A stretch of DNA of 32,000 nt from Candidatus Poseidoniaceae archaeon (GTDB lineage: Archaea; Thermoplasmatota; Poseidoniia; Poseidoniales; Poseidoniaceae), in contig CALSTM010000003.1 of assembly GCA_943789275.1 (NCBI GenBank), positions 480,001-512,000 of the forward strand. Reading direction: 5' to 3'. Shown here piece by piece: positions 1,725 to 29,050 of the stretch (position 1 is its first letter; each line of letters begins with the position of its first letter). The notes under the pieces are model-generated. The model was not told where the DNA came from. It searched no databases and worked only from the letters and a program-made list of their open reading frames with translations. Position numbers and translations under genes: made by a program.

Positions 1725-1910
1725 TCATATCATATCAAATTTCCGCCACCTTTTCTTGAAAATGACTCCAAAAGAGAAACTATCTGCCGGAATTCGGTCA
1801 TTTACGACGGTTGGCGGTGAATTTGCCGATAAAAAGACCCTCCGAAAAAAGCCTCTTTTGTATCGTATTGAACCGTTGGCATCATAGAGTAATTGCTCTT
1901 CGAGTCGAAC

Positions 1911-3251
1911 ATGGCATTCAAGCGTGTACTCATTGCGAACCGTGGTGAAATTGCTCTTCGAATACTTCGAACTCTACGCGACATGGGCATCGAGGCAGCG
2001 ATCATTCACGGGCGAGAAGACCGTCTTTCACTGCCCGTTCGGTTCGCTGATGTGGCGTATGCCAATTACAAGTCCAATCCTTTGGACACCTATTTGGATA
2101 TTGAATCGGTGATTCATGCAGCTAAAGAGATGGGTTGTGACGCAGTTCACCCAGGATACGGCTTCCTCGCGGAGAACGCTCACTTTGTCCGTCGACTGCA
2201 AGAGGAAGGCATCACTTTCATCGGTCCATCCGCTGATGTTATCACGCTGCTTGGCGATAAAATTGAGGCACGTGCAGCAATGGAAGCAGCAGGACTTCCA
2301 ACGGCTAAGGGTTCTTCTGAACCCATTTCTGATGCTGCTGTGGCATCGACTTTGGCGGAACAAATTGGATATCCAGTCATCATTAAGGCTGCCGCAGGCG
2401 GCGGCGGTATCGGTATGCAAATTGTCGAAAAGTCTGACGAGTTTGAAAACGCTCTCAAACTGTGCCAATCACGAGCCCGCTCGGCTTTTGGCGATGAGCG
2501 AGTGTTTGTAGAGAAGTACATTCAAGGTGCGCAACACGTTGAATTCCAAGTCCTTGGAGACGGGAAGAAGGCGATTCATTTTGGAGAACGGTTTTGCTCC
2601 ATCCAACGGCGCCACCAAAAATTAGTCGAAGAAGGACCTTGGCTGGACGAGGCAAAACGCGAAGAGATTGGTGCTCTGGTTTGCAAAGGAGCAGAATCGG
2701 TAGGATACAAAGGTCTGGCGACCTTTGAGTTCTTGCGTGATGCAAACGGCGATTTTTACTTCCTCGAAGTCAACCCGCGTGTCCAAGTCGAACACACGGT
2801 TACCGAACTCATCACCGGTCACAATCTGGTGGAATTGGGTATTCGTGTAGCACAAGGCGAAGAGCTTCCATTGAACCAAGAGGATATTGTGTGGAACGGT
2901 CACGCCATTCAATGTCGATTGAACGCAGAAGACCCTCGCAAGTTCATTCCAAGTCCTGGCCGGCTTTGGGAATGCCACTTCCCTTCAGGTTACGGTGTTC
3001 GGGTTGACACACATGCTCATCCGGGCTACGAAATGCCTGGATGTTTCGACTCGTTACTGGCTAAACTCTTGGTCTGGGGCAGAGACCGCGATGACGCGGT
3101 TAAGCGTATGAGAACTGCACTTGATGAAACGGTTATTTCGGGCGTAGAACACTTGATTCCGCTTCATCGTCGAATCATGGATGAGAAGGATTTCCTGAAC
3201 CGTGACATCACCATTCAATACATTGAGATGCACGAAGAGTTGCTCGGTTGA
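1911..3251 (+). CDS. accC: Biotin carboxylase (acetyl/propionyl-CoA carboxylase biotin carboxylase subunit; a pyruvate carboxylase A subunit cannot be excluded)
   Basis: MAFKRVLIANRGEIALRILRT, HPGYGFLAENAHF, GDKIEARAAM, the glycine-rich KAAAGGGGIGM, and EVNPRVQVEHTVTE are canonical ATP-grasp biotin carboxylase motifs. About 446 aa from the ATG at 1911 (the ORF track starts at 1893). No BCCP or carboxyltransferase gene is adjacent. Confidence 0.9.
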   Translation: MAFKRVLIANRGEIALRILRTLRDMGIEAAIIHGREDRLSLPVRFADVAYANYKSNPLDTYLDIESVIHAAKEMGCDAVHPGYGFLAENAHFVRRLQEEGITFIGPSADVITLLGDKIEARAAMEAAGLPTAKGSSEPISDAAVASTLAEQIGYPVIIKAAAGGGGIGMQIVEKSDEFENALKLCQSRARSAFGDERVFVEKYIQGAQHVEFQVLGDGKKAIHFGERFCSIQRRHQKLVEEGPWLDEAKREEIGALVCKGAESVGYKGLATFEFLRDANGDFYFLEVNPRVQVEHTVTELITGHNLVELGIRVAQGEELPLNQEDIVWNGHAIQCRLNAEDPRKFIPSPGRLWECHFPSGYGVRVDTHAHPGYEMPGCFDSLLAKLLVWGRDRDDAVKRMRTALDETVISGVEHLIPLHRRIMDEKDFLNRDITIQYIEMHEELLG

Positions 3252-7053: not shown

Positions 7054-7515
7054 TCACTTCTTTCGATTCGCTAACATCTGCTCTCGAATGTTTTTGGCGT
7101 GGTCCCAGTCTTCTTGCTCTTCGTCTTGTTCAACAACAAATTGTGGGATTGGAATTGGACGCATCATTGAATCAATGGCAACAAAGAAGAAAAATCCTTC
7201 ACATATTTTCTTTTTCTCCCAAGTTGCCTTATTCACCGCCACAGCCGTCACTTTGGTGCAGGCAGTATGGCTGCTGGTAAAGACAACTTTTCCGGTAACT
7301 TCGAGCAAATCCCCTTGTCGGGCAGGGGCGATGAACGTCAGAGCGTCAATCGAGATGGTGACGAACTCTCTGTGGGCAAATTTAGCGCAAGCGATTCCTC
7401 CCGCTTTGTCCATCAGTGAAAGTAATTTGCCACCGAACAGGGTATCGTATGCGTTGGTATCGCCAGGGAATACATGCTCGATCAGCGTAGCGGGTTCCTT
7501 TGAGTACGGTTCCAT
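7054..7515 (-). CDS. Acyl-CoA thioesterase, hotdog fold (YciA/COG1607-like)
   Basis: 153-aa ORF. VFPGDTNAYDTLFGGKLLSLMDKAGGIACAKFA ... VTISIDALTFIAPARQGDLLEVTGKV is the typical acyl-CoA thioester hydrolase hotdog core. Confidence 0.8.
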   Translation of the reverse strand: MEPYSKEPATLIEHVFPGDTNAYDTLFGGKLLSLMDKAGGIACAKFAHREFVTISIDALTFIAPARQGDLLEVTGKVVFTSSHTACTKVTAVAVNKATWEKKKICEGFFFFVAIDSMMRPIPIPQFVVEQDEEQEDWDHAKNIREQMLANRKK

Positions 7516-17812: not shown

Positions 17813-17842
17813 GGTCGCACAACATAGGGAACAGTCATAGGA

Positions 17843-17879
17843 TAGGTGTTACGGCCAACACCTACCCATTGGGTAGGTG
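17843..17879 (+). promoter_or_regulatory. Two mutually exclusive hairpins in the fabI leader, a candidate RNA switch or attenuator
   Basis: Hairpin A pairs TAGGTGTT (17843-17850) with AACACCTA (17857-17864): 8 bp, 6-nt loop. Hairpin B pairs CACCTACCC (17859-17867) with GGGTAGGTG (17871-17879): 9 bp, 3-nt loop, followed by CTTTT and the ATG at 17885. The arms overlap at 17859-17864. Hairpin B buries the SD-like GGTG at 17876-17879. Confidence 0.4.
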
Positions 17880-17884
17880 CTTTT

Positions 17885-18679
17885 ATGCTACAATTACAGG
17901 GAAAAACAGCCTTCGTCTTCGGTGTTGCGAGTGAAGACTCGATTGCATGGGCAATTTGCCAACAACTTGCAGCGGCTGGTGTGACGCTGTACCTCGGTTA
18001 TCAGAAGCGTTTCATGAGTCGTGTTTTCCAACTCAAGGATAAGCTCCCACAAATTGGTGGGTTCTATCCATTGGATGTTGCTGAAGATGCCACAACCCGT
18101 GAATTCTTTGAGGCGTTTGAGAAAGAACATCCAGGTAAGAAGGCTGACATTCTCATTCACGCTATTGGTTTTGCACCTCGTGCGTGCTTTGATCGCCCAA
18201 TATTGTTTGTCGAAGACAGCGATATTAACACCGCTATGACCATCTCGGCAAATTCACTTCAACGATGTTTGAAACACGCTCTGCCCTACCTCAATCCTGG
18301 CTCGTCTACAGTTACACTGACCTATGCTGCATCGAATCGCTTTGTTCCAAACTACGGAATCATGTCGATGGCCAAGGCTGCGCTTGAATGCTGGACTCGG
18401 GAACTTGCATGCCATCTTGGTCCAGAAGGTCATCGTGTGAATGCGATTTCTTCTGGCCCTATACGAACCATCGCTGCCAGCGGAGTCCCCGGCTTTGACA
18501 ATATTCTCGACCACGTCGAAGCGAACTCGCCGTTGCGTAGAAACGTCAGCCAAGAGGATGTGGCTGGTGCAACATTATGGTTGGCTAGCCCTCTTTCAAG
18601 CGGTGTGACGGGACAGTGCATCTATGTTGACGGTGGATATTCGATTACAATGGTGCCGCAGAGCATCATGAACAACTGA
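17885..18679 (+). CDS. fabI: Enoyl-[acyl-carrier-protein] reductase (NADH), FabI type
   Basis: LQGKTAFVFGVASEDSIAWAI (FabI-type Rossmann N-terminus), YGIMSMAKAALE (Tyr-x6-Lys catalytic pair) and RVNAISSGPIRTIAASGV closely parallel E. coli FabI motifs. ATG at 17885 is preferred to the GTG at 17846. Confidence 0.88.
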   Translation: MLQLQGKTAFVFGVASEDSIAWAICQQLAAAGVTLYLGYQKRFMSRVFQLKDKLPQIGGFYPLDVAEDATTREFFEAFEKEHPGKKADILIHAIGFAPRACFDRPILFVEDSDINTAMTISANSLQRCLKHALPYLNPGSSTVTLTYAASNRFVPNYGIMSMAKAALECWTRELACHLGPEGHRVNAISSGPIRTIAASGVPGFDNILDHVEANSPLRRNVSQEDVAGATLWLASPLSSGVTGQCIYVDGGYSITMVPQSIMNN

Positions 18680-18685
18680 GGTGAA
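18679..18685 (+). promoter_or_regulatory. Shine-Dalgarno GAGGTGA for the megasynthase gene
   Basis: GAGGTGA overlaps the fabI stop codon and lies 5 nt upstream of the ATG at 18691. The fabI-megasynthase gap is 11 nt. Confidence 0.55.
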
Positions 18686-18690
18686 ATGAT

Positions 18691-21600
18691 ATGGTCAAAG
18701 ATGCCAAAGGAAATGATGTTCCAGGACTTGAACAAGGACCGTTCGAACCCATTGCCGTAATTGGCGTATCTGCGCTGATGCCGGACGCACCAGACATCGA
18801 TTCGTTTTGGCAAAACATCCTTGATTCCAAGGTCAGTATCCGCCAAATCCCCGAAAATCGCTGGATTGGACCCGTTGACCATTTCTTCCGCGACGGTGGA
18901 CCTGGAAACATCGAAGAAGGCTACACTTATGCCCGAATCGGTGCTGTAGTCGAAGGCTATGAGTTCGATTGGCGCCGATGGAAGCAGCCTCCCGGCACAC
19001 TTACTCAAATCGACCTCGCTCAGCAATGGGCGGTTTCTGTTGCAGCAGCAGCGATAGAGCACGCAGGATACGATGGAGAAAGCAAAGACATCGACCGACT
19101 ACGAACAGGTGTAGCGTTTGCGAATGCACTTGGCGGTGAAAACAGAAACCTTTCCAACATTCGAATCTATTCCAACCACACCAAGGAATTGGCTAAGTCG
19201 TTTGGTATGCCAACCGCCAACGGCGATGCATTTGTCGACGCCATTAACACCGGTGCCCCACGGGTCAACGAGGATACAATGCCTGGTGAATTAGCCAACG
19301 TCGTTGCCGGCAGGGTTTCCAATCTCTTGGATTTACAAGGCCCTAACTTTGCAATGGATGCCGCTTGTGCATCCTCTTTAGCAACCCTCATGGATGCCTG
19401 CCGTCTTTTGCAGATGCGTCAAGTCGATGTCATGATCGCAGGTGCTACAGACCGAAGTATGGATGCACCAACTTTCGCTAAGTTCAGTGCTATTGGTGCG
19501 CTCTCTCCCACCCACTCGACGCCTTTTGATGCAGGTGCGAACGGATTCGTAATGGGTGAAGGTGCAGGTGCATTTGTCCTCAAACGCCTTTCTGATGCCA
19601 TTCGAGACGGTGACGAAGTTCACGCTGTCATTCGCGGTGTAGGCGGCTCCTCCGATGGACGCGGAAAAGGCATAACCGCTCCAAGTCAGCGCGGTCAGAT
19701 TCAGGCCATTGCTCGTGCGTATTCACAAGCGGAGTACGACACAACGACCGTAGAATTAATTGAGGCTCACGGAACATCAACCAAGGTCGGAGACGCTACC
19801 GAATTAGGAACGCTGTCGTTGCTTTGGGAAGGTTCTCCCTCCGGTAATCACGTCGCCGTTGGTTCCATCAAATCTCAAGTTGGCCACCTCAAGGCTGCTG
19901 CTGGAATTGCTGGCTTAATCAAAGCCGTAATGGCTCTTCATCACCGCACTATACCGCCTTCGGCTGGCTTCAAAACGCCCAACCCAACCGTGGATTGGGA
20001 CAACAACGCTTTCTTTGTTCCAACAGAAGCACGAGATTGGCCTCGGCCGGTCAACCACCCGCGCCGAGCAGGAGTGTCTGCATTCGGTTTCGGTGGAACC
20101 AATTATCACGTTGCATTGGAAGGTTTTGAACCGGAATATCACGCTGAACTCGCTCAGAAATGGGATGCTCGATGGTCCGCATATGCTCAAGACTCAACAG
20201 CATCATCAGCGCCATCAACTGCTGACTCCATCTTGGATGCAAGCGCACAACCATCGATGACGCATGAAGAGATGAAGGCTGTTGAAGGTGGCATTTTGTT
20301 GCTATCAGCATCAGACCTTACCGCACTGCAATTAAAGCTCGAAGCGGTTGATTTTGCAGGCACACATTTCGATGAGGACCCTCGCGGTCTACGGCTTTCA
20401 TCGGCATTGGATTCGGCTTCTTCTGAATATGCTGAATCGGATGCTTTCCGCATGTGCATCGTGGCTACTTCGTGGGCAGAGTTTCACAAGCGTACAGCAC
20501 TTGCTGGTAAAGCCATGAATGACCCCGAAAAGTGGGGCTTCCTCCAGGCTCAAGGGATTCTGTTGACCAACGACCCTGCTCTCCACCCCAAGGCGAAAGT
20601 CGCTCACATGTACCCCGGCCAGGGGAGCCAATACGTGGGCATGACGCACGATTTGCATCAACGCTACAGCGCCGTACAGAACGTCTGGAATCAAGCGGAT
20701 GAGACGATGGTTGAGGTCTTGGACGGCGAAACCCTGTCAAGTTTCGTATTGCGGTCAAATCTATCCAAAGAGGAGCGCATTGAAGCAGAACACAAACTGA
20801 AGCAGACTGAGTATACTCAGCCTGCAATGCTCACGGCTGATTTGGCCATTGAACGTGCACTGAACGACCACGGCCAGCACCCCGATATGGTTGCAGGCCA
20901 TTCCCTCGGCGAATATGCTGCCCTCATGTCTGCAGGTATTCTGGACATGGACGGCGCGTTGCGAGCATCGGCCGCTCGCGGCACTGAAATGGGATCTGTT
21001 GTTATCGAAGACAAAGGCTTGATGGCAAGCATCATGGCTCCTTACGATGAAGTTGCATCCGTGCTCGATTCGATTGAGGGCTACGTTATTGCAGCCAATA
21101 AGAACTCGCCAAAGATGACGGTGATTGCTGGAGAAACCGAACCTGTGAAGCAGGCTATGGCTCAGTTTGATGAGAAAGGATTCCAAGCAGTCCCTCTGGC
21201 CACATCTCACGCCTTCCACTCTCGTATCGTAGCGCCTGCAAACGAACCGTTGCGTCGATTCCTCGAAAGCCTGGAGATTCGCTGGCCCCGTATCCCGATT
21301 ACCGCGAATGTGGATGGATCGTTTTATCCGATGGAAGGTGCCGATTCGAAGGAAGGGGTGCTCGGAAAACTTGCACCACAAATGGCATCAGCTGTCGAAT
21401 GGACCACTCAAATTGAGACGATGTATGCCGCAGGTGCCCGTGCTTTTGTCGAAGTAGGGCCGAAGCGAGCCCTCACCATGTTTGCCGTTCAGATTCTTGA
21501 AGACAAACCGCATTTGCCGATTATGTGCAATCATCCAAAGCAAGGCGGCATCGCAACGTTCCTCAGCGCACTTGGAACACTTGCTCTTGCCGGTCGAAAA

Positions 21601-24600
21601 CCGCAATGGCCTGCTGCAGATTCTCACGTGCTCACCGAAGCATTCCGAGCAGGACCCATCGAAGCATACGGTGCCTCAAGCACCCCTTCGTTCAGTACTG
21701 CCCAAGTCGAGGATTTGCAAACACGGGCACGCCCACTGCCATCAAACGGCTCTCCAGCACCTGTGCAGAACATCGTTCAAGCGTCGGCTCCTGTAGCCCG
21801 AAGCCTGGACCCTGCTGTGGCTGCTGCCAAGGCTATGGATGCTTATTTGGGCGACCGCCTCGCTGCAGTGAGCGGCTATCCTGCACGATTCTGTAACGGC
21901 ATGGTTAATCTTCGCTTCGGACTTGGAATGACCGATGCGCAAGTTGCATCCGTACTTCATACGATTTCCAGCGAAGCATCCGTTGATGCTTCGACCGATA
22001 CAACGGCTATAACGACTGCTGCTGATGTGGCGAAATGGATTACTGCTCTTCCGTCTTCATGGAGTCCAAAGACTTCGATGTCGCATGCACCACCACTACA
22101 GACCACCCCACAAACGGTATCGGCACCAACACATGTTGACCGCCGCAAGGCAGATCCATACGTGGTGACCGGTGTCTCTCTCGGTCTTCCTGGTGGAGAG
22201 CGCGTGTTTGAGGAAGAGACCTTCGAGCGCTTGGTGCGAGGTGAAACCTGCATTTCTGAAGTGAGCGACGAATACAAGCAACGCTTGCTCGATAAGAACA
22301 TCGTTCGTCTCATCAAAGGCAGGGACGGCTCTGTTAACATGGAGCAAACCAAGGAGTTTGGTGACATACCTCAACTTGCTGGAATCAAATCAGCGTTCGA
22401 TATTGCAGAAGAGTTTGGCATCGATGCCAAGGTTGTTCTTGCATGGGACATCACGACTCAGTTGGCCGTTGCTTCCGGACTGTTGGCATTGCGAGATGCG
22501 GCGATTCCACTCACACCGGTTGAACAAATCGGTAAGGGCGGTCTTCGATTGATTCGCAACTGGCAAGTCCCACAGCACCAGCGTGAGAGAACCGGTATAG
22601 TGTTCGCTTCCTGTTTCCCTGGTTTACAAATGGCAATGAAACACGCCAAGAGCGACGGTGATGACGGTGAAGGACGATTTGACCGCCGCTATCTTTTCCA
22701 AACGCTCAACATGGGCCATTCACAGTTCGCTCAGTACACTGGTATCCGTGGACCAAACACGACCATCAATCTTGCTTGTGCCTCGACCACTGCTGCGTTT
22801 GGCGTAGCTGAAGACTGGTTGAACAGCGACCGGGTCGACCGAGTCGTCATCATTTCTGCTGACGATGTGACCGGTGAAGACTTGTGGGAATGGATTGGAG
22901 GTGGCTTTGCAGCCTCTGGTGCAGCAGCAACAAGCAACGTGGTTGAAGAAGCAGCCTTGCCATTCGACCGTCGAAGAAACGGCTTGGTTCTCGGAATGGG
23001 CGCTGCGGCTTTCGTTGTTGAGCGTCATTCAGAAGCCATACAACGTGGAGTCCAACCGATTGCTGAGTTGCTCGGCTCAACAACAGCGAACTCCGCTTTC
23101 CACGGAACTCGACTCGATGTTGAACATGTTGCCCAGACGGTTGACTCGTTCATGTCTTCAATGGAAACGCAATGGAGTCTTGACCGACATGCGATCGCTG
23201 CGAACACGGTGTTCTTTTCTCATGAAACATACACACCGGCTCGAGGAGGCTCAGCACAATCTGAAGTTCGTGCTCTGCGAGATACTTTTGGTGCCAGCAC
23301 AGACCGTTTGGTGATTGCTAATACCAAAGGATTCACTGGACACCCAATGGGTGTTGGTATCGAAGATGCAAGCATGTTCTACGGCATGAAGACGGGTAGA
23401 ATACCGCCAATTGCAAACCACAAGGAGACCGACCCAGAACTTGGAAACTTAAACCTCTCAAAAGGTGGAGATTATCCGGAACTTGAGTATGGTCTGCGCT
23501 TTGCAGCAGGCTTTGGCTCACAAATGGCCCTTTCATTGGTTCGTAAATGGCCGGTTGTCGGTGAGCGAATCGATGGGCAAAAGTTCCTTGCCTGGACTCG
23601 AAAACTGGCAGAGACTGACGATGTTGTTCTCCGAATTCTCGATAACAAACTCGTGGCTTATGTTAACGGGGACGAAAATCTCCATGGCGGCGTACAAGGC
23701 GAAGCATGGGATGTTACGGCGGCTTGGGAAGGTAAACCCTCTTTGGAAACGCCTGTTGCTGCTTCAGCGCCTATTGCACCGCCTGCACCTGCCGCACCAG
23801 AGCCAACCCCAGAACCTACGCCAACACCCGCAGCGGTTGCTGCTCCAGTGGCTTCAGATTTGACGGCAGTTGTCATTGAAGTGGTGGTAAGCCATACCGG
23901 CTATCCTGCAGATTTCGTTGAATTGGATCAAGACCTTGAAGGAGAATTGGGCATTGATACGGTAAAGCAAGCTGAAATCATGGCCGATATACGAGACCGT
24001 TTCACTTTACCAATCGATGAAGAGTTTGTTCTTTCTGACTATCCAACGCTGAACCACATGATTGGCTATATTCAGCAAATGACGACGGGTGTTGCAGCAG
24101 CGCCATTGGTCGTACCCGCTTCGGCACCTGTTGCTGCACCTGTCGCCGTAACTCCAGAGCCTGTTCCAGCGCCTGCAGTTGTCACGGATGAATCGCTCAC
24201 TGAAACGGTGATTAGCGTTGTCGTTCGTCATACTGGCTACCCCGCTGATTTCGTTGAATTGGATCAAGACCTTGAAGGAGAATTGGGTATTGATACGGTA
24301 AAACAAGCCGAAATCATGGCCGAGATTCGAGATCTGTTTTCACTTCCGCTGGATGAAGACTTCGTCCTCTCGGACTACCCTACGCTGAATCACATGATTG
24401 GTTACATCCAAAGAATGCAAGGCGGTGTTTCTGTGGCACAAGCTCCAGCAATTGCTGCACCAACCGTAGCAAAACCAACACCGGTTCCGGCTCCGACAAT
24501 GCCATCAAAGCCCGTATCCGTTGCAACCGCAGTGAGCGATACAGACCTCACTTCGATTGTTGTCGAAGTTGTCGTCCAGCACACCGGTTATCCGAGCGAT

Positions 24601-27600
24601 TTCATCGAGTTGGACCAAGACCTCGAGGGAGAACTTGGCATTGATACGGTGAAGCAAGCCGAAATCATGGCCGATATTCGGGACCGATTCTCATTGCCTT
24701 TGGATGAAGATTTCGTCCTCTCTGATTATCCTACCTTGAACCACATGATTGGCTATATCCAAAGAATGCAAGGTGGTTCAGCGGTTAAGCCGGTTGCATC
24801 GAGTCCCGTTCCAGCACCAGCCGTAGCTGCTCCTGTGCCGGTTTCTGTACCGTCTGCGCCGACGTTGCCTCCAGTTACCGATTCGACGATTCAATCGCGC
24901 CTGATTGAAGTGGTGGTTCGCCATACAGGATATCCTGATGATTTCATCGAGATGGACCAAGACCTTGAGGGTGAATTGGGCATTGATACGGTGAAGCAAG
25001 CCGAAATTATGGCTGATGTTCGTGATATCTTTGAATTACCAATCGATGAAGACTTCGTTCTTTCAGACCATCCAACACTGAATCACTTTACCGCATACAT
25101 TCAACGGATGACAGGCGGAAATGCGGTTGAAGCACCGGTTGTTGTTGAGGCGCCAGTTGTGGTACCTGCACCAGTTTCTTCACCGGCACCTCGACCTGTC
25201 GAACGGCAAGAAAACTGCCGACGATGGCAGGTTGAAGTCGAAGAGTGTCTTGGAAGCGATTCACCAATTTCTCTTGACGGCACATTGGTCGTCACCGATG
25301 ATGGATGGGGCATTGCTGAAGCCTTCTGTCAACTTGTTGAAGCCAAAGGAATGAAGGCGGTTCGAGTTGGCTTTGAAAGTGAAATCCGTGACATGTCGTC
25401 GCATGAAGAAGATGGCCGTACCGTTTTCCGTGCTGACCCAGCAAATCCAGAACACATGGTCGAAGTCAGTAAGGAACTGCAACAGATGAACGTTGCAGGT
25501 TTGGTTCACTTGGCTCCGCTTAAACTCGCAGGAGTCGCTTGGAACGATGACACACTTCCATCCTCACAAATCGCATTGGCTGCTCACGGATACTTCTCAC
25601 TCCTGCAAGGTCTTGATGCACAATTTGCTGGACGAGAGAACGGCCTGGTTGCTTCAGTAACCGCTCTTGATGGCCGACATGGCAATATTGGCGAACGGTT
25701 CAATTCCGTACAATGTGCTGCTTCTGGGGTTACGAAATCCTACTTCTTTGAGCAAACTCATCTGCGAATGCGTGCATTGGATATGCACCCTGAATTGATT
25801 CTTGATGCTGAGCAAGCAGCTCAAACCATCGCATCTGACCTGTTTGAAATCGGCGGAGAGGTCGAGGTCGGAATCGATCGAGACGGCCGTCGGTGGACAC
25901 TGGTTGCCTTCGCTGAAGACCTCGAAGCAGAAACCACACCGTTGCAGTCCGATGACACTTGGATTGTTTCGGGCGGTGGCTCTGGGGTAACAGCAGCATC
26001 CGTTATCGGCGTAGCATGCCACTCGCTCAATGCCGGTGCCCACTTTGCCTTACTCGGACGCTCGAAGTTGGTTGAGGAAACCAAGGAATGGGTTGAATGG
26101 TCGGATGCACAACTTACTGAACGAAAGAATTCCCTTCGTCAAGAGTTGATTGAAGCCAGTGAATCTGGTAAAGTTACAATGGTACAATGGAACACAGCAT
26201 GGCAGAAGTTCTCTCGAAGTCGAGATGTCTACATCACCATCAAGACGATTGAAGAGACCGGTAACGCTGCTTCATACCATTCCGTCGATGTCATGGACAC
26301 AGACGGGCTTCGTGCTTTGGGTACGTCATTAGGGCGCCCGATAACGGGAATCATTCACGGTGCAGGCTTAGAAGACTCGAAACTCGTAGCGGCCAAAGAT
26401 TACAACGTCTTTGACAAGGTCATTCGAGTCAAGGTTGACGGCTGGCAATCGTTGTTAGGCGCAGTTGAATCGTCGGGAGGCGAATTGCGCTTTGCTTCAT
26501 GTTTCACCAGTGTCTCAGGGCGGTTTGGAAACAACGGCCAAACGGATTATTCTGCAGCAAACAGCATTCTTGACGCTGAGATGGCTCGATTGACGGCAAG
26601 CGGTACATGCAGGGCAGTAGCAATCGCATGGACTGGATGGCGAGACGTAGGAATGGCAACTCGTGGCTCTTTCCAGGCTGTTTTTGATGCAGCTGGAATC
26701 GATACCATTTCGGTCGACAAGGGTGTTGAAATCTTTGTTGGAGAAGCCTTGCAAGGTGGAAAACGCCGAGTTCTCGGCTGTGGCAATCTTGGAACGATGG
26801 ATGCGTTTGACGCTTTCAGAGAAGCGCCTCTTCGCCTTCCGGCGGAAATGGCGAACATTATCGCGGACCCGTTCCGATTCCCGTTTGTCGACAAAGTTCT
26901 CTCGGTCGATGAACGGCAATCACTGGTCACACAGACCACGCTCTCTGTTGCTGATCATCCGTTCTTGACGGACCATTCCATCGAAGGAGTCCCCTACCAT
27001 CCGGGCGTCATGGCCATGGAGATGTTTGCTGAAAACGCTCTTCTGTTGAGGCCTTCTGCTTGTCTTGCCGGTTTCGAGGACGTTTCTTTCGGTCTACCCG
27101 TGAAGTTACTGAAAGGTGATTTGACGGTTCGAGTTCACGCTGATTTGATACGTGGCGATGGTGAAATGAGTTGGGTTGCATGTCGCTTGGTTTCGGATTT
27201 GAGTAACTCGAAGGGTGAAGTGTTTGGTGAACGAGAACATCACAAGGCAGTAGTCCGGGTTGTCGAAAGCCGTGATGACCTTGGACCGTTCCTGCAAAAG
27301 GAAGTCGAATCTCTGCCGCAACTTGGAACGCCTGCTCTTGGTGAGTTGGTTGAGTTGCCATCGTTCATCTATCGACGTTATTTCCACGGTCCTCGATTCC
27401 AATCGCATGGTGGCGTACTACGCGGTATTGGTGATGAGCAGATGCCAGGAGCGGACGGTATTGCCTTGATGCGTCATCAACTGCCGATGCTCGACCAGTT
27501 TGCTCTTGAATCAAAAGGAGAAACCGTCTTGCTTGAAGCCCTGCCGATGCTCATTGAAGCAGGATTCCAAAACGCTGGTCTAGTCGCCATGGAATCTGAA

Positions 27601-27834
27601 GGCTTCTCTTCACTTCCTGTTGGAATCGAATGGTCATCGATGCTCAGAGTTCCAGAGCGAGATGAAGTCTTGAGAATGCGAAGTCTGCGAATTGCCGTTG
27701 AGGACGCTGGTATCACTGTCCATGATGTTGTTGTTGTTGGCGATGATGATGCTCCAGTTCTTGCACTCAAGGGCCTTCGATTGAAGAGTATGGCTCCAGT
27801 GGCACAAGAAGATGCGTTCACGCTCGACCGGTGA
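18691..27834 (+). CDS. Type I multidomain fatty-acid/polyketide megasynthase, PfaA-like with an extra ketosynthase: KS-AT-(degenerate carrier)-KS-ACPx4-KR-DH
   Basis: Uninterrupted 3047-aa ORF. All domain signatures were read directly from the translation; see the domain features below. No ER, TE or FabA-type DH domain is present in cis. Confidence 0.95.
   Translation: [3047 protein letters not shown]
18745..20121 (+). other. Ketosynthase domain 1 (KS1)
   Basis: [15 protein letters not shown]. Active-site Cys in MDAACASSL (TGT 19366-19368). [14 protein letters not shown] and [12 protein letters not shown] supply the His-His pair. [17 protein letters not shown] is the C-terminal signature. 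Confidence 0.92.
20596..21495 (+). other. Malonyl-CoA:ACP acyltransferase domain (AT)
   Basis: [30 protein letters not shown] (active Ser, codon at 20902-20904) and SHAFHS (an HAFH-type motif associated with malonyl specificity). Confidence 0.9.
21823..22050 (+). other. Degenerate carrier-protein-like segment between AT and KS2
   Basis: [45 protein letters not shown]...[11 protein letters not shown] aligns by eye with the downstream ACP repeats ([37 protein letters not shown]...LNHMIGYIQ). The D-T dipeptide is replaced by T-D. Confidence 0.35.
22153..23550 (+). other. Ketosynthase domain 2 (KS2), divergent but retaining Cys-His-His
   Basis: [13 protein letters not shown]. Active-site Cys in [12 protein letters not shown] (TGT 22777-22779). 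[40 protein letters not shown] (first His). [16 protein letters not shown] (second His). [16 protein letters not shown] is the C-terminal signature. Confidence 0.8.
23854..25110 (+). repeat. Four tandem acyl-carrier-protein domains (coding tandem repeat, period about 336-351 nt) separated by Ala/Pro-rich linkers
   Basis: Repeat units lie at about 23854-24081, 24187-24417, 24538-24768 and 24880-25110. Each reads ..VV(S/R/Q)HTGYP(A/S/D)DF(V/I)E(L/M)[20 protein letters not shown](D/E)(I/V)RD...[13 protein letters not shown]. Linkers resemble [27 protein letters not shown]. Units 1 and 2 share a 41-nt identical run (23911-23951 = 24247-24287). Confidence 0.85.
25228..26760 (+). other. Ketoreductase domain (structural pseudo-KR plus catalytic KR subdomains)
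   Basis: The NADPH-binding site is [25 protein letters not shown] is present. The catalytic region is [23 protein letters not shown] (SDR Tyr in the YxxxN context typical of PKS/FAS KR domains). Confidence 0.78.
26863..27810 (+). other. PKS-type dehydratase domain (double hotdog)
   Basis: The HxxxGxxxxP motif sits in [26 protein letters not shown] (catalytic His codon at 26974-26976). The second half contains YFHGPRFQ and [13 protein letters not shown]. There is no FabA-like DH/isomerase signature. Confidence 0.72.
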
Positions 27835-27838
27835 TGAT

Positions 27839-28597
27839 ATGAATGGGTTCGAGGAGATTTTTCCTCCACACGCCTTACCGGTTCGAGTACAGTGTTTTCG
27901 ATGTCCCGTTGAGGCACGAGACCTCGGGCAGGTTACACTTGCATCCGTTGATGAAGTTGCAACGTTTGCTGTGGATAAGCGCCGTGATGAACACTTGACT
28001 GGTCGTTGGTTACTTGCACAAGCAGTTGCTCAGTGGGGATTGGAACCTTCGATGTTGGAAGTTCGACGAACTGAACATCGAGCACCCATACTTGCTTACC
28101 TCTCCGGTCTTTGGATGAATACGCCTTTGCCTTCGATCAGTATTGGCCATTCAGAAGGTTGGGCGTATGTTGCTGTTGTTGAACCGGGATGGTCCATTGG
28201 AATAGACGCTGAATCTGCTGAACGTGGCATAGCACCCAATGCATTTGACATGATGGCAAAAGGAGATGAATTGGAATGGCTGAATGCTCATCCAGAACAT
28301 GCCATTCGGTTGTGGACTTCGAAAGAATCTGTACAAAAAGCGATGCAACTGGGCATGCATTTGAACCCCCGTAAAATTGTAATTCCAATTGGAGAATCAA
28401 TTGTAGATATTTCAATTGATAATTCAAAAATCCAATTGCAAAACTGGACATTTCGTGGTGCGAATATCTCGTTGGCTTGGCGACCGGAATCAGTACGGTT
28501 GAGAACGGCAGAGGATGATTTACTGGACCTCACGAGAAAGGCTATGCAGGAACAAGAATGGGGTGTTGGTTGTAAAACGACACAAGGGCGCGCCTGA
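27839..28597 (+). CDS. 4'-phosphopantetheinyl transferase, Sfp/PfaE type
   Basis: SIGHSEGWAYVAV, SIGIDAESAE (Mg-binding D/E motif) and RLWTSKESVQKA (the WxxKE[SA]xxK motif). The ATG at 27839 is 4 nt after the megasynthase stop. The ORF-track start at 27812 would overlap the megasynthase by 23 nt. Confidence 0.85.
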   Translation: MNGFEEIFPPHALPVRVQCFRCPVEARDLGQVTLASVDEVATFAVDKRRDEHLTGRWLLAQAVAQWGLEPSMLEVRRTEHRAPILAYLSGLWMNTPLPSISIGHSEGWAYVAVVEPGWSIGIDAESAERGIAPNAFDMMAKGDELEWLNAHPEHAIRLWTSKESVQKAMQLGMHLNPRKIVIPIGESIVDISIDNSKIQLQNWTFRGANISLAWRPESVRLRTAEDDLLDLTRKAMQEQEWGVGCKTTQGRA

Positions 28598-29050
28598 CTA
28601 CTTCCAAAACATGTAGGAATCACGGCTTGATTCCCACGGTAGACCCACTGCGATACCGAGTTCTGTCAAGACCACATAGTTGAACAGCAGGTAAATCACG
28701 TAGGTTGAGGAAATGACAAGGAGTGAGGTGTTGATAATTTTGCGTCTTTCTCGCTTGGCTTGATCAAGTGTGCATATGCCTTGATTTCGGAAATAGAATA
28801 CGAGTCCAACAACGACGCAAAGCAGGGCAATGAGCATCATTGTTCCTCTAAACCACCCGTAACCATCTTCGCCCCAGTACAGTGTGTTCGAAAGAGCTGC
28901 ACCGGTTGAAACAGTCGCCAATCCGAACATGACCATGACCACAGAGGGTAGGCAACACAGCGACGCCACAAATGTTGAGCCAGCCACGTATTTCCACATG
29001 GCTCGCACGGGATTTTGCTGCGAAACTGACGCATCAACCACCCCGGACAT
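28598..29050 (-). CDS. Small integral membrane protein (3-4 TM) with a Cys-Cys-x-Pro motif in TM1; weak resemblance to MerT/MerF-type metal transporters
   Basis: 150-aa ORF. TM1 is STFVASLCCLPSVVMVMFGL. After TM2 comes FRNQGICTLDQAKRERRK (a single Cys, then a basic loop). Further TMs follow. Its stop codon directly abuts the PPTase stop (0-nt gap). The functional assignment is speculative. Confidence 0.45.
   Translation of the reverse strand: MSGVVDASVSQQNPVRAMWKYVAGSTFVASLCCLPSVVMVMFGLATVSTGAALSNTLYWGEDGYGWFRGTMMLIALLCVVVGLVFYFRNQGICTLDQAKRERRKIINTSLLVISSTYVIYLLFNYVVLTELGIAVGLPWESSRDSYMFWK

What the first reader, a model, noticed from the sequence alone, without database searches (positions are those of the whole stretch)
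17885..28597. Compact fabI - KS-AT-KS-ACP4-KR-DH megasynthase - PPTase operon in an apparently archaeal genomic context
Three same-strand genes are packed with gaps of 11 nt (containing GAGGTGA) and 4 nt. They encode FabI, a 3047-aa type I synthase and an Sfp-type PPTase. The synthase carries KS, malonyl-type AT (HAFH), four carrier domains, KR and a PKS-type DH, but no ER, no TE and no FabA-type DH/isomerase. FabI immediately upstream is the obvious trans-acting ER, so the three genes would supply a complete reductive elongation cycle. No PfaB/PfaC/PfaD equivalents are in the window, and the missing isomerising DH argues against a classical PUFA product. A saturated, hydroxy or mono-unsaturated acyl chain is the simplest prediction. 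The flanking genes look archaeal rather than bacterial: a TBP-fold protein, COG1099-type TatD, an EF-1alpha-like paralogue and giant C-terminally anchored acidic surface proteins. Archaea are generally held to lack ACP-dependent fatty acid synthases. A self-contained ACP-based megasynthase with its own PPTase would therefore bear on whether some planktonic archaea make fatty-acyl lipids.
Basis: partly seen in the sequence, partly recalled or inferred. Interest (0 to 1): 0.85.

Follow-up and report, generated by a model that had tools for sequence, protein, structure and literature searches.

The report
Archaeal type I fatty-acid synthase operon
An abundant group of ocean archaea (Marine Group II) carries a conserved three-gene operon of bacterial type that looks able to build fatty-acyl chains on its own, and its carrier domains unexpectedly have threonine where every textbook carrier has serine.

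Summary
Three co-oriented genes encode a FabI-type enoyl reductase (17885-18679), a 3047-aa KS-AT-KS-ACP4-KR-DH synthase (18691-27834) and an Sfp-type PPTase (27839 or 27812 to 28597). The gaps are 11 nt and 4 nt.

The host is archaeal. The same gene order, inside an archaeal neighbourhood, occurs in more than 70 Poseidoniales (Marine Group II) genomes from both families, including single-cell genomes. All three genes are under strong purifying selection (dN/dS 0.006-0.12). I found no genuine pseudogenes.

The architecture is not new. It matches the uncharacterised bacterial "Type R secondary lipid synthase" of Shulse and Allen (2011). Relatives occur in Acidobacteria, Chloroflexi, Elusimicrobia, Myxococcota, Heimdallarchaeota and other Thermoplasmatota. 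In relatives the upstream slot holds other reductase types, or the reductase is fused to the synthase. This supports FabI as the trans-acting reductase.

Every carrier domain here has GIDTVKQAE, with Thr at the phosphopantetheine-serine position; so do all 186 motifs found in the 77 related loci. The second KS keeps Cys-His-His.

Earlier papers had already suggested bacterial-like fatty-acid genes in this group. Product and threonine modification are inferred, not shown. Interest 0.7.

The parts
17859..17884 (+). Conserved 9-bp hairpin CACCTACCC/GGGTAGGTG containing the SD-like AGGTG, followed by a T-run, immediately before the fabI ATG. Candidate leader or attenuator.
   Evidence: Conserved across genera, with G.U wobbles in some. 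No Rfam hit. Covariation tests were weak or failed.
17885..18679 (+). fabI-type enoyl-ACP reductase, proposed trans-acting ER.
   Evidence: Pfam adh_short_C2 1e-70. All top NCBIfam hits are FabI but below equivalog cut-offs. Best PDB hits are FabI (1ulu, 8e-56) and Tyr-x6-Lys is present. 74-100% identical across the order; dN/dS 0.006-0.017.
18691..27834 (+). 3047-aa iterative type I synthase, KS-AT-KS-ACP4-KR-DH.
   Evidence: TIGR02813 PfaA scores 935 bits, below its 1010 cut-off. dN/dS 0.035-0.051. 40 of 43 full-length orthologues are uninterrupted and the other 3 contain N runs.
18745..20142 (+). KS1 (PfaA-like): Cys in DAACASS, His in EAHGTST, His in GHLKAAAG.
20596..21594 (+). Malonyl-type acyltransferase: GHSLG and HAFH.
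   Evidence: (FabD 1e-61).
21808..21990 (+). Degenerate ACP-like linker between AT and KS2 (GLGMTDAQVASVL). Some relatives have an intact extra Thr-ACP here.
   Evidence: Sequence read; relatives. Inference only.
22153..23565 (+). KS2, FabF-like, with a complete Cys (ACAST), His (SHETYTP), His (TGHPMG) triad. This is the domain labelled 'CLF' in the Type R description.
   Evidence: 33 of 33 and 115 of 118 family members keep the Cys.
23848..25125 (+). Four tandem carrier domains, each with ELGIDTVKQAEIM. Thr codons (ACG) are at 23959, 24295, 24646 and 24988.
   Evidence: Pfam PP-binding x4. The Thr aligns on the Ppant Ser of solved ACPs. 186 of 186 motifs in the 77 related loci have Thr. Coordinates.
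25243..26790 (+). Ketoreductase (structural plus catalytic subdomains): GGGSGVTAA, LED (B-type), Tyr in QTDYSAAN.
   Evidence: The B-type assignment comes from motif knowledge.
26881..27807 (+). PKS-type (double hot-dog) dehydratase: HPFLTDHSIEGVPYHPG. The putative acid residue lies in IEAGFQ.
   Evidence: Pfam PKS_DH_N 8e-8 and PS-DH 9e-4. Motifs conserved at 95% or more.
27839..28597 (+). Sfp-type 4'-phosphopantetheinyl transferase (alternative start 27812).
   Evidence: Pfam ACPS and 4PPT_N. Catalytic motifs G.D.E and W..KE..QK are conserved in 66 orthologues. dN/dS 0.07-0.12. Present downstream in every locus that reaches that far.
1893..3251 (+). Biotin carboxylase (AccC-like). Candidate subunit for malonyl-CoA supply, not adjacent to the operon.
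   Evidence: ACC genes directly flank the synthase in relatives L080, L082 and L086. The link here is inference.
7054..7515 (-). 4HBT/YciA-like hot-dog thioesterase. Possible release enzyme; weak candidate.
   Evidence: Synteny is kept in Thalassarchaeaceae locus L026.

Best explanation
This is a chromosomal operon of a Marine Group II archaeon (Poseidoniaceae). It encodes a self-sufficient, iterative type I fatty-acid/'secondary lipid' synthase of the bacterial PfaA-related 'Type R' kind. It was probably acquired from bacteria before the two Poseidoniales families diverged and has been kept since.

Proposed mechanism:
1. The PPTase transfers phosphopantetheine from CoA onto the hydroxyl of the conserved threonine in each of the four carrier domains (inferred).
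2. The malonyl-specific AT loads malonyl units (inferred from motifs).
3. KS1 and KS2, both with complete catalytic triads, condense. They probably split the work by chain length (inferred by analogy with the two KS of PUFA synthases).
4. The B-type KR and the PKS-type DH give a trans-2-enoyl thioester.
5. The separately encoded FabI reduces it in trans.
6. Repeated cycles give a saturated or largely reduced acyl chain.
7. There is no thioesterase domain. The chain is probably handed directly to a lipid acyltransferase or released by a discrete hot-dog thioesterase (speculative).

Shown here: the parts, their intact motifs, the archaeal host, order-wide conservation and purifying selection. 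Inferred: every catalytic step, threonine modification, the product and its fate.
For: Domain content and active-site motifs are intact and at least 95% conserved in 46 full-length orthologues.

The host is archaeal. 73 related loci are almost all from Poseidoniales genomes, SAGs included. They share conserved archaeal synteny in both Poseidoniaceae and Thalassarchaeaceae. The exact protein occurs on contigs of up to more than 1 Mb, with thermosome and HMG-CoA synthase nearby.

The operon is tightly packed. fabI-synthase gaps are about 3-15 nt as read from the printed sequences, with GAGGTG in most loci.

Selection is strong: dN/dS is 0.006-0.017 for FabI, 0.035-0.051 for the synthase and 0.07-0.12 for the PPTase. 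The housekeeping neighbours give 0.034-0.05. There are no real frame disruptions.

The case for FabI as ER rests on relatives. They carry OYE-type genes (L079), an acyl-CoA dehydrogenase (L083) or an N-terminally fused NMO/PfaD-type ER (L080) at the equivalent upstream position.

The fatty-acid role is supported by ACC and biotin genes that directly flank the synthase in L080, L082 and L086 and in Koribacter (PMC3098273). A PlsC-type acyltransferase follows it in the P0178 context.

The PPTase catalytic motifs are conserved.

Ser and Thr interchange within the family. P0122 is the sister of the archaeal clade. P0152 and P0261 use Ser, and P0228 mixes both. This implies that the hydroxyl is the functional feature.

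Bacterial sister groups in the KS2 tree have bacterial gene contexts.
Against: There is no biochemical, lipid or expression evidence.

Threonine is not a known phosphopantetheine acceptor. I found no report of one, although most subscription literature was not searchable.

FabI scores below NCBIfam equivalog cut-offs (228 vs 391 bits for the best model).

There is no release enzyme or complete ACC in the operon. The AccC 15 kb away could belong to another carboxylase.

The reference Type R systems have no known product, so 'fatty acid' is itself an inference.

Field studies have not reported distinctive ester-bound fatty-acyl lipids assigned to MGII. PMC6962369 discusses only the possibility.

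The KS2 tree is a neighbour-joining tree without support values, and most of its leaves are unlabelled.
Confidence: 0.62

Rival explanations
1. Same machinery, different role. The operon makes a specialised 'secondary lipid' rather than the cell's general fatty acids. Candidates are a very long, hydroxylated or partly unsaturated chain for an envelope or protective lipid, or a precursor of a hydrocarbon. FabI would act only in some cycles.
For: The family was defined as secondary-lipid synthases with diverse, unknown products (PMC3098273). Multiple tandem ACPs and two KS domains are typical of PUFA, heterocyst-glycolipid and phenolic-lipid systems. Many bacterial hosts of relatives also have FAS II, so the system is not generally the core FAS (taxa). 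ACP number varies from 1 to 4 among Poseidoniales.
Against: ACC and biotin genes are adjacent in several relatives. Shulse and Allen suggest that related Types M and S are the only complete fatty-acid pathway in some hosts. The operon is universally retained and FabI is extremely constrained across an order for which, in the sources I could read, fatty-acid genes are mentioned only generically (no FAS II gene set is described). No tailoring genes are present in the operon.
Confidence: 0.28
2. FabI is not the synthase's partner. The synthase alone makes a beta-hydroxy, enoyl or polyene chain without enoyl reduction, and FabI serves another pathway.
For: FabI is a separate polypeptide. Some relatives (L081, L085) show no reductase next to the synthase.
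Against: fabI sits about 3-15 nt upstream of the synthase in every locus that reaches that far, across both families. It is the most constrained gene of the neighbourhood. Other reductase types occupy the same slot, or are fused, in relatives. No FAS II genes lie within 10 kb in any locus, and the sources I could read describe MGII fatty-acid genes only generically, so FabI would otherwise have no evident substrate.
Confidence: 0.07
3. The threonine carrier domains cannot be phosphopantetheinylated. The synthase is then either inactive or works on CoA-bound or otherwise non-tethered substrates, and the PPTase serves another target.
For: Ser is regarded as the universal acceptor. To my knowledge Ser-to-Thr ACP mutants are poor AcpS substrates (memory, not checked). 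Archaea are known for ACP-independent fatty-acid chemistry (bioRxiv 10.1101/2024.07.05.601840).
Against: ELGIDTVKQAEI is invariant in all but one of the 186 motifs (one copy reads QLGIDT...) despite up to about 50% divergence elsewhere. The PPTase is always adjacent or fused, with intact catalytic residues. Ser and Thr interchange among close relatives and within one protein. Tandem duplication of a useless domain would not be maintained.
Confidence: 0.06
4. The contig is bacterial or chimeric, and the archaeal context is a binning or assembly artefact.
For: Two of the 73 related loci come from bins labelled Rhodobiaceae and Salipiger (L030, L034).
Against: Those two loci carry the same TBP-TatD-fabI-synthase synteny as the archaeal ones, so they are misbinned. 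The same arrangement occurs in single-cell genomes and on contigs of 100 kb to more than 1 Mb. GC content shows no sharp break.
Confidence: 0.01

Closest known systems
Type R secondary lipid synthase cluster (Shulse and Allen 2011; Koribacter, Solibacter, Elusimicrobium, Roseiflexus)
   Same: A single pfaA homologue with KS-MAT-(second KS-like domain)-ACP(3-6)-KR, followed by a PPTase gene. The PPTase has the hShxH (P1b') motif. There are occasional ACC neighbours. Homologues of the window protein come from the same phyla.
   Different: The host is an archaeon. A fabI gene is fused into the operon upstream. The domain called CLF keeps its catalytic Cys. A C-terminal PKS-type DH is present, which the published domain string does not list. 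Thr carriers are not mentioned in that paper. The product of Type R is unknown, so this comparison gives no function.
PfaA of bacterial PUFA synthases (pfaABCDE)
   Same: The N-terminal KS-MAT, tandem ACPs, KR and PKS-type DH are in the same order. TIGR02813 is the best NCBIfam hit (935 bits). It is iterative and needs a dedicated Sfp-type PPTase.
   Different: The score is below the family cut-off of 1010. An extra active KS is inserted between AT and the ACPs. There is no PfaB, no PfaC (KS-CLF plus FabA-type DH/isomerase) and no PfaD (NMO-type ER). ER is supplied by an SDR-type FabI. The ACP motif is GIDT, not GIDS. cis double bonds are therefore not expected.
ArsA/ArsD type I fatty acid synthase of Azotobacter vinelandii (Type P, phenolic-lipid alkyl chains)
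   Same: A PfaA-related iterative type I FAS that makes saturated long chains. It belongs to the same M-T branch, with hShxH PPTases (PMC3098273).
   Different: It is a two-protein system with its own ER, coupled to type III PKSs. None of these is present here. No direct sequence comparison was done.
Bacterial type II FAS (FabF/FabD/FabG/FabZ/FabI, ACP, AcpS)
   Same: The chemistry proposed for each cycle is the same. FabI here is a bona fide FabI-family SDR, and KS2 is FabF-like.
   Different: All activities except ER are fused into one polypeptide. The carrier is an integrated tandem domain with Thr. The PPTase is Sfp-type, not AcpS-type.
Archaeal ACP-independent fatty-acid synthase complex of Sulfolobus (ketothiolase/DUF35/ACR/MaoC; bioRxiv 10.1101/2024.07.05.601840)
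   Same: It is also a proposed route to fatty acids in Archaea.
   Different: The proteins are unrelated, the substrates are CoA-bound, and there are no carrier domains and no PPTase. The system here is of bacterial type.

Membership tests
Type R secondary lipid synthase (Shulse and Allen 2011) | One pfaA homologue with domain order KS-MAT-CLF(KS-like)-ACP(3-6)-KR | tested here: met
   KS1-AT-KS2-ACP4-KR(-DH). Orthologues have 1-4 ACPs.
Type R secondary lipid synthase (Shulse and Allen 2011) | PPTase gene immediately downstream | tested here: met
   27839-28597. Present in every orthologous locus that extends that far.
Type R secondary lipid synthase (Shulse and Allen 2011) | PPTase motifs of Types M-T: P1b' hShxH, and P1a x(G/D)xP | tested here: inconclusive
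   ISIGH fits hShxH. The P1a position reads HRAP, with R instead of G/D.
Type R secondary lipid synthase (Shulse and Allen 2011) | Proximal KS groups with the Type R reference KS domains in phylogeny | not tested
Indirect support: relatives at 39-52% identity come from Elusimicrobia, Acidobacteria and Chloroflexi.
Type R secondary lipid synthase (Shulse and Allen 2011) | Second KS-like domain is a chain-length factor (lacks the catalytic Cys) | tested here: not met
   Cys-His-His is intact here and in 33 of 33 and 115 of 118 relatives. The published label may simply be loose.
PUFA (Pfa) synthase | PfaA equivalog score (TIGR02813) | tested here: not met
   935 bits against a cut-off of 1010.
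PUFA (Pfa) synthase | PfaC with KS-CLF and FabA-type DH/isomerase; PfaD NMO-type ER; PfaB AT | tested here: not met
   None in the window or within 10 kb in 73 related loci.
FabI enoyl-ACP reductase | SDR fold of the adh_short_C2 type with a Tyr-x6-Lys catalytic pair | tested here: met
   Pfam 1e-70. PNYGIMSMAK aligns with solved FabI structures.
FabI enoyl-ACP reductase | NCBIfam equivalog cut-off | tested here: not met
   The best FabI model scores 228 bits against a cut-off of 391. The 12 top-ranked hits are all FabI models.
FabI enoyl-ACP reductase | Reduces trans-2-enoyl thioesters on a carrier protein | not testable with these tools
   Needs an enzyme assay.
Sfp-type PPTase | Two-lobed ACPS fold with the Mg-binding D/E/E and W..KE..K motifs | tested here: met
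   Pfam ACPS and 4PPT_N. GIDAE and WTSKESVQK are conserved in 66 orthologues.
Acyl/peptidyl carrier domain (PP-binding) | Four-helix PP-binding domain | tested here: met
   Four Pfam stretches. Aligns to solved ACPs.
Acyl/peptidyl carrier domain (PP-binding) | Conserved Ser in G-x-D-S-(L/I) as the phosphopantetheine attachment site | tested here: not met
   Thr in 4 of 4 here, 186 of 186 in the 77 related loci, and 356 of the 370 Ser-or-Thr motif hits in wider family representatives.
Poseidoniales (MGII) chromosomal locus | Synteny with archaeal genes in genomes classified as Poseidoniales | tested here: met

The most novel reading that the evidence does not exclude
The carrier domains of this synthase are phosphopantetheinylated on threonine by their dedicated Sfp-type PPTases. 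The same would hold for the whole large Type R-like family in bacteria, Poseidoniales, other Thermoplasmatota and some Asgard-affiliated contigs. This acceptor residue is not, as far as I could find, described for any carrier protein. It could insulate the system from other PPTases or ACP hydrolases. In Marine Group II this Thr-ACP megasynthase, with FabI, would be the cell's de novo source of fatty acyl chains. [quoted passage not shown]
Probability: 0.4. Interest if true: 0.88.

Novelty: new variant of a known kind. Interest (0 to 1): 0.7.

Why it matters
Archaea are still described as lacking type I and type II fatty-acid synthases, ACP and ACP synthase (bioRxiv 10.1101/2024.07.05.601840, 2024). 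Here an entire, globally abundant archaeal order carries a conserved, strongly constrained operon with carrier domains, a PPTase and all four elongation-cycle activities.

Marine Group II also lack G1P dehydrogenase and have G3P dehydrogenase and PlsC-like genes (PMC6461757, PMC6962369). The operon is therefore the concrete, clonable candidate for the 'mixed membrane' hypothesis, and it makes that long-standing question directly testable by heterologous expression.

Separately, the family-wide threonine at the phosphopantetheine site, if modified, would extend basic carrier-protein biochemistry. It would also matter for annotation, because these proteins are currently named 'SDR family oxidoreductase' or 'beta-ketoacyl synthase N-terminal-like domain-containing protein'.

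Tried and rejected
- Bacterial or chimeric origin: rejected by synteny, SAGs and long contigs. The two 'bacterial' bins are misbinned.
- Classical PUFA synthase: rejected. There is no PfaB/C/D and no FabA-type DH, and the protein scores below the PfaA cut-off.
- Second KS as a chain-length factor: rejected, because the triad is intact.
- Decaying cluster: rejected. dN/dS is far below 1, and the only frame breaks coincide with N runs.
- Hidden ER or TE domain: no unassigned region of adequate size.
- DNA-level tandem repeat of the ACP region: TRF found none.
- fabI leader as a known RNA: no credible Rfam hit. RNAalifold gave no consensus on my alignment. Counts for the upstream helix were only weakly better than controls. 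This is left as an open side observation.
- Literature: ten searches found no paper that describes this synthase in MGII, no follow-up of Type R, and no report of threonine phosphopantetheinylation.
- Papers not held: Villanueva et al. 2017, Dibrova et al. 2014 and the Beld et al. PPTase review. I cannot say exactly which MGII genes Villanueva et al. meant.
- Solved structures: none of this family; the best hits are generic PKS KS-AT.
Full report
**Observation**

- fabI runs from ATG 17885 to TGA 18679. An in-frame GTG at 17846 exists, but an AGGTG sits 5 nt before the ATG.
- The synthase is a 3047-codon ORF, 18691-27834.
- The third ORF ends at 28597 and can start at ATG 27839 (4-nt gap) or ATG 27812 (23-nt overlap).
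- The 11-nt gap between fabI and the synthase reads GGTGAAATGAT.

Pfam results:
- FabI: adh_short_C2, 1e-70.
- Synthase: ketoacyl-synt N and C, KAsynt_C_assoc, Acyl_transf_1, four PP-binding stretches, KR, PKS_DH_N and a weak PS-DH.
- Third gene: ACPS and 4PPT_N.

No ER, TE or FabA-type domain is present, and no unassigned segment is large enough to hide one.

The flanks are as described. They hold a two-repeat TBP-fold protein, a TatD hydrolase and an EF-Tu domain-2 protein. They also hold a 1963-aa and a 382-aa protein with C-terminal membrane anchors and acidic tails.

**Host**

A scan of one genome per GTDB species with the synthase returned 73 loci. Nearly all are labelled Poseidoniales, Poseidoniaceae, Poseidonia, Thalassarchaeaceae, Euryarchaeota, Methanobacteriota or Thermoplasmatota. 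Several are single-cell genomes. Identity is 65-94% in Poseidoniaceae and 48-58% in Thalassarchaeaceae.

The exact protein occurs on at least 17 public contigs, the longest over 1 Mb. HSP70, thermosome and HMG-CoA synthase genes lie downstream.

tblastn of all window proteins against the loci shows a conserved order: giant protein, hyp273, TBP, TatD, surface protein, fabI, synthase, PPTase, 150-aa membrane protein. It holds throughout Poseidoniaceae. Apart from the surface-protein and 150-aa genes, it also holds in Thalassarchaeaceae (L026, L060).

Two loci from bins labelled Rhodobiaceae and Salipiger carry the same archaeal synteny, so they are misbinned.

GC content rises only slightly over the synthase, to 0.50-0.54 from 0.47-0.51.

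The archaeal context is therefore confirmed, and the cluster predates the split of the two MGII families.

**Integrity and constraint**

In 46 full-length orthologues every catalytic motif is at least 95% conserved (coordinates).
- KS1: DAACASS, EAHGTST, GHLKAAAG.
- AT: GHSLG, HAFH.
- KS2: ACAS, SHETxTP, TGHPM.
- KR: GGGSGVTAA, the Tyr in QTDYxAAN, and LED, which I read as B-type from motif knowledge.
- DH: HPFLxDHxIxGxPYHPG.

KS2 aligns to solved FabF structures with Cys, His and His in register.

FabI aligns to solved FabI structures (1ulu, 8e-56) and has the Tyr-x6-Lys pair. Its NCBIfam scores are all to FabI models but below their equivalog cut-offs.

The PPTase keeps the Sfp-type motifs in 66 orthologues, although overall identity is only 28-92%. 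These motifs are KR..H...R.LL, S..H, G.D.E and W..KE..QK.

Nei-Gojobori dN/dS against close orthologues:

| Gene | dN/dS |
|---|---|
| FabI | 0.006-0.017 |
| Synthase | 0.035-0.051 |
| PPTase | 0.07-0.12 |
| TatD (neighbour) | 0.034 |
| TBP-fold gene (neighbour) | 0.05 |

Of 43 loci with a full-length match, 40 are uninterrupted. The three with in-frame stops all contain runs of N. There is no sign of decay.

All four carrier domains read ELGIDTVKQAEIM. Alignment to solved ACPs puts the Thr exactly on the phosphopantetheine Ser of GVDS, GIDS and GADS. The codon is ACG in all four, one base from TCG Ser.

- In the 77 related loci, all 186 carrier motifs found have Thr and none has Ser.
- An exhaustive HMMER search of 1.8 billion cluster representatives, using aa 1130-2329, found 1119 proteins at E below 1e-30. 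The top 150 are mostly 2000-4000-aa proteins with the KS2-like domain at about residues 1200-2300, that is, the same architecture.
- In those proteins, 356 of the 370 motif hits with Ser or Thr are GIDTVKQAE-like with Thr.
- A few lineages use Ser (P0122, P0152, P0261). One protein (P0228) mixes Ser and Thr.

The PPTase is always adjacent or fused and catalytically intact, and Ser and Thr interchange among close relatives. The simplest reading is that the hydroxyl is the functional feature and that Thr is modified. That remains an inference. I found no report of threonine phosphopantetheinylation, but much of the relevant literature was not searchable.

**What family it is**

Shulse and Allen (2011, PMC3098273) catalogued 20 types of pfa-like 'secondary lipid' clusters. 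Their text does not mention archaea.

[quoted passage not shown] It occurs in Koribacter, Solibacter, Elusimicrobium and Roseiflexus, sometimes with an ACC gene. Its product is unknown. Types M-T share the PPTase motif hShxH; the window PPTase has ISIGH.

The window synthase fits this description. Named relatives come from the same phyla as Type R and from others. These are Elusimicrobia, Acidobacteria, Chloroflexi, Myxococcota/Polyangiaceae, Actinobacteria, Gemmatimonadota and Gammaproteobacteria. Archaeal relatives are labelled 'Candidatus Heimdallarchaeota archaeon' and 'Candidatus Thermoplasmatota archaeon'.

The domain they called CLF keeps its Cys in 33 of 33 and 115 of 118 family members. 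It is therefore better described as a second KS.

TIGR02813 (PfaA) is the best NCBIfam hit, at 935 bits against a cut-off of 1010. No solved structure of this family exists. A search for follow-up work on Type R found none.

**Comparative context and mechanism**

| Locus (protein) | Host clue | Neighbours of the synthase |
|---|---|---|
| L078 (P0121, 48% id, 3.0-Mb contig) | archaeal synteny | TatD-fabI-synthase-PPTase-M28 |
| L079 (P0123) | none noted | two Oxidored_FMN genes upstream; PPTase downstream |
| L080 (P0132, 4019 aa) | none noted | N-terminal NMO (PfaD/FabK-type ER) fused; then biotin ligase, a 1941-aa multidomain ACC and BioY |
| L082 (P0136) | Arf-family GTPase nearby | AccC-BCCP-carboxyltransferase directly upstream; PPTase domain fused |
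| L083 (P0130) | Polyangiaceae | acyl-CoA dehydrogenase upstream; overlapping PPTase downstream |
| L086 (P0144) | Thermoplasmatota MAG | synthase-BioY-AccC-BCCP |
| P0178 context | none noted | PlsC-family acyltransferase downstream |

Three points follow.
- Different reductase families occupy the slot that fabI holds here. This is the best available evidence that FabI is the trans-acting ER.
- The repeated ACC and biotin association argues for malonyl-CoA-fed fatty-acid synthesis.
- The PlsC neighbour suggests direct hand-over of the acyl chain to lipid assembly, which would explain the missing TE.

In the window, an AccC-like biotin carboxylase lies at 1893-3251 and a YciA-like hot-dog thioesterase at 7054-7515. 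Their link to the operon is only positional.

**Origin**

In a neighbour-joining tree of 135 KS2 domains, the Poseidoniales sequences group with P0121 and P0122. This clade is sister to a group whose one examined member, P0150, has a bacterial context with SurA, PdxA and HtpG. The Heimdallarchaeota-labelled and other Thermoplasmatota sequences fall elsewhere in the tree.

This suggests several independent bacteria-to-archaea transfers, one of them into the MGII stem. The tree has no support values and few labelled leaves, so this is provisional.

**Prior knowledge**
- Rinke et al. (PMC6461757) report only fatty-acid degradation, the lack of G1P dehydrogenase and the presence of G3P dehydrogenase in 270 MGII MAGs.
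- Besseling et al. (PMC6962369) and Villanueva et al. 2021 (PMC7852524) cite Villanueva et al. [quoted passage not shown] I could not read the 2017 paper, so I cannot tell whether it identified this gene.
- A 2024 preprint still states that archaea encode neither FAS I nor FAS II and almost never ACP or ACP synthase.
- No paper I could search links the Shulse types to MGII.

**Verdict**

The architecture was already catalogued in bacteria, and the general idea was already raised for MGII.

Three things go beyond the papers I was able to search. None of them makes this explicit assignment of an order-wide, constrained fabI-synthase-PPTase operon to the Type R kind. None notes the intact second KS. 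None notes the family-wide threonine carriers.

Product, release route and threonine modification remain inferences that a small set of expression and mass-spectrometry experiments could settle.

Noticed in passing
window 23959-23961, 24295-24297, 24646-24648, 24988-24990: Thr (ACG) replaces the canonical phosphopantetheine Ser in all four carrier domains. The motif ELGIDTVKQAEI is invariant in all but one of the 186 carrier motifs in the 77 related loci (one copy reads QLGIDT...). It is typical of a large bacterial and archaeal family, and a few relatives use Ser instead.
   Followed up: yes
window 17825-17884: A conserved leader lies upstream of fabI: AACAGTCATAGG, then a GGTGTT/AACACC helix overlapping a 9-bp helix CACCTACCC/GGGTAGGTG. 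The second helix buries the SD-like AGGTG and is followed by CTTTT and the ATG, so it looks like a terminator. It is conserved across Poseidoniaceae genera, with G.U wobbles in some. There was no Rfam match, and the covariation tests were weak or failed.
   Followed up: partly
window 22153-23565: The second KS, labelled CLF in the published Type R description, keeps Cys-His-His here and in nearly all relatives. The synthase therefore has two potentially active condensing domains.
   Followed up: yes
window 21808-21990: The AT-KS2 linker contains a degenerate ACP-like stretch (GLGMTDAQVASVL). Some relatives have an intact extra Thr-ACP there or between KS1 and AT.
   Followed up: partly
window 1893-3251: A lone AccC-like biotin carboxylase lies 15 kb upstream of the operon. 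Complete ACC and biotin (BioY, biotin ligase) genes directly flank the homologous synthase in L080, L082 and L086.
   Followed up: partly
window 7054-7515 (-): A YciA/4HBT-type hot-dog thioesterase. Its position relative to ThiI and the giant protein is kept in Thalassarchaeaceae locus L026. It is a possible release enzyme for a synthase that has no TE.
   Followed up: no
window 28598-29050 (-): A 150-aa membrane protein with a CCLP motif abuts the PPTase stop with zero gap. It stays adjacent to the PPTase in almost all Poseidoniaceae loci but on either strand, depending on the genus. Function unknown.
   Followed up: no
L030 and L034: Public MAGs labelled Rhodobiaceae bacterium and Salipiger bermudensis contain contigs with the full archaeal TBP-TatD-fabI-synthase synteny. 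These are misbinned Poseidoniales contigs.
   Followed up: yes
L081 (P0152), L082 (P0136), L086 (P0144): Homologous megasynthases occur on contigs attributed to Heimdallarchaeota and to a non-Poseidoniales Thermoplasmatota MAG. The Heimdallarchaeota one has Ser-type ACPs and Arf/Ras GTPase neighbours. The Thermoplasmatota one forms a synthase-BioY-AccC-BCCP operon. They fall in different parts of the KS2 tree from the MGII clade.
   Followed up: partly
L001-L077: Carrier-domain copy number varies: 4 in the window's close relatives, 3 in most Poseidoniaceae and 1-2 in Thalassarchaeaceae. The core motif does not change.
   Followed up: partly
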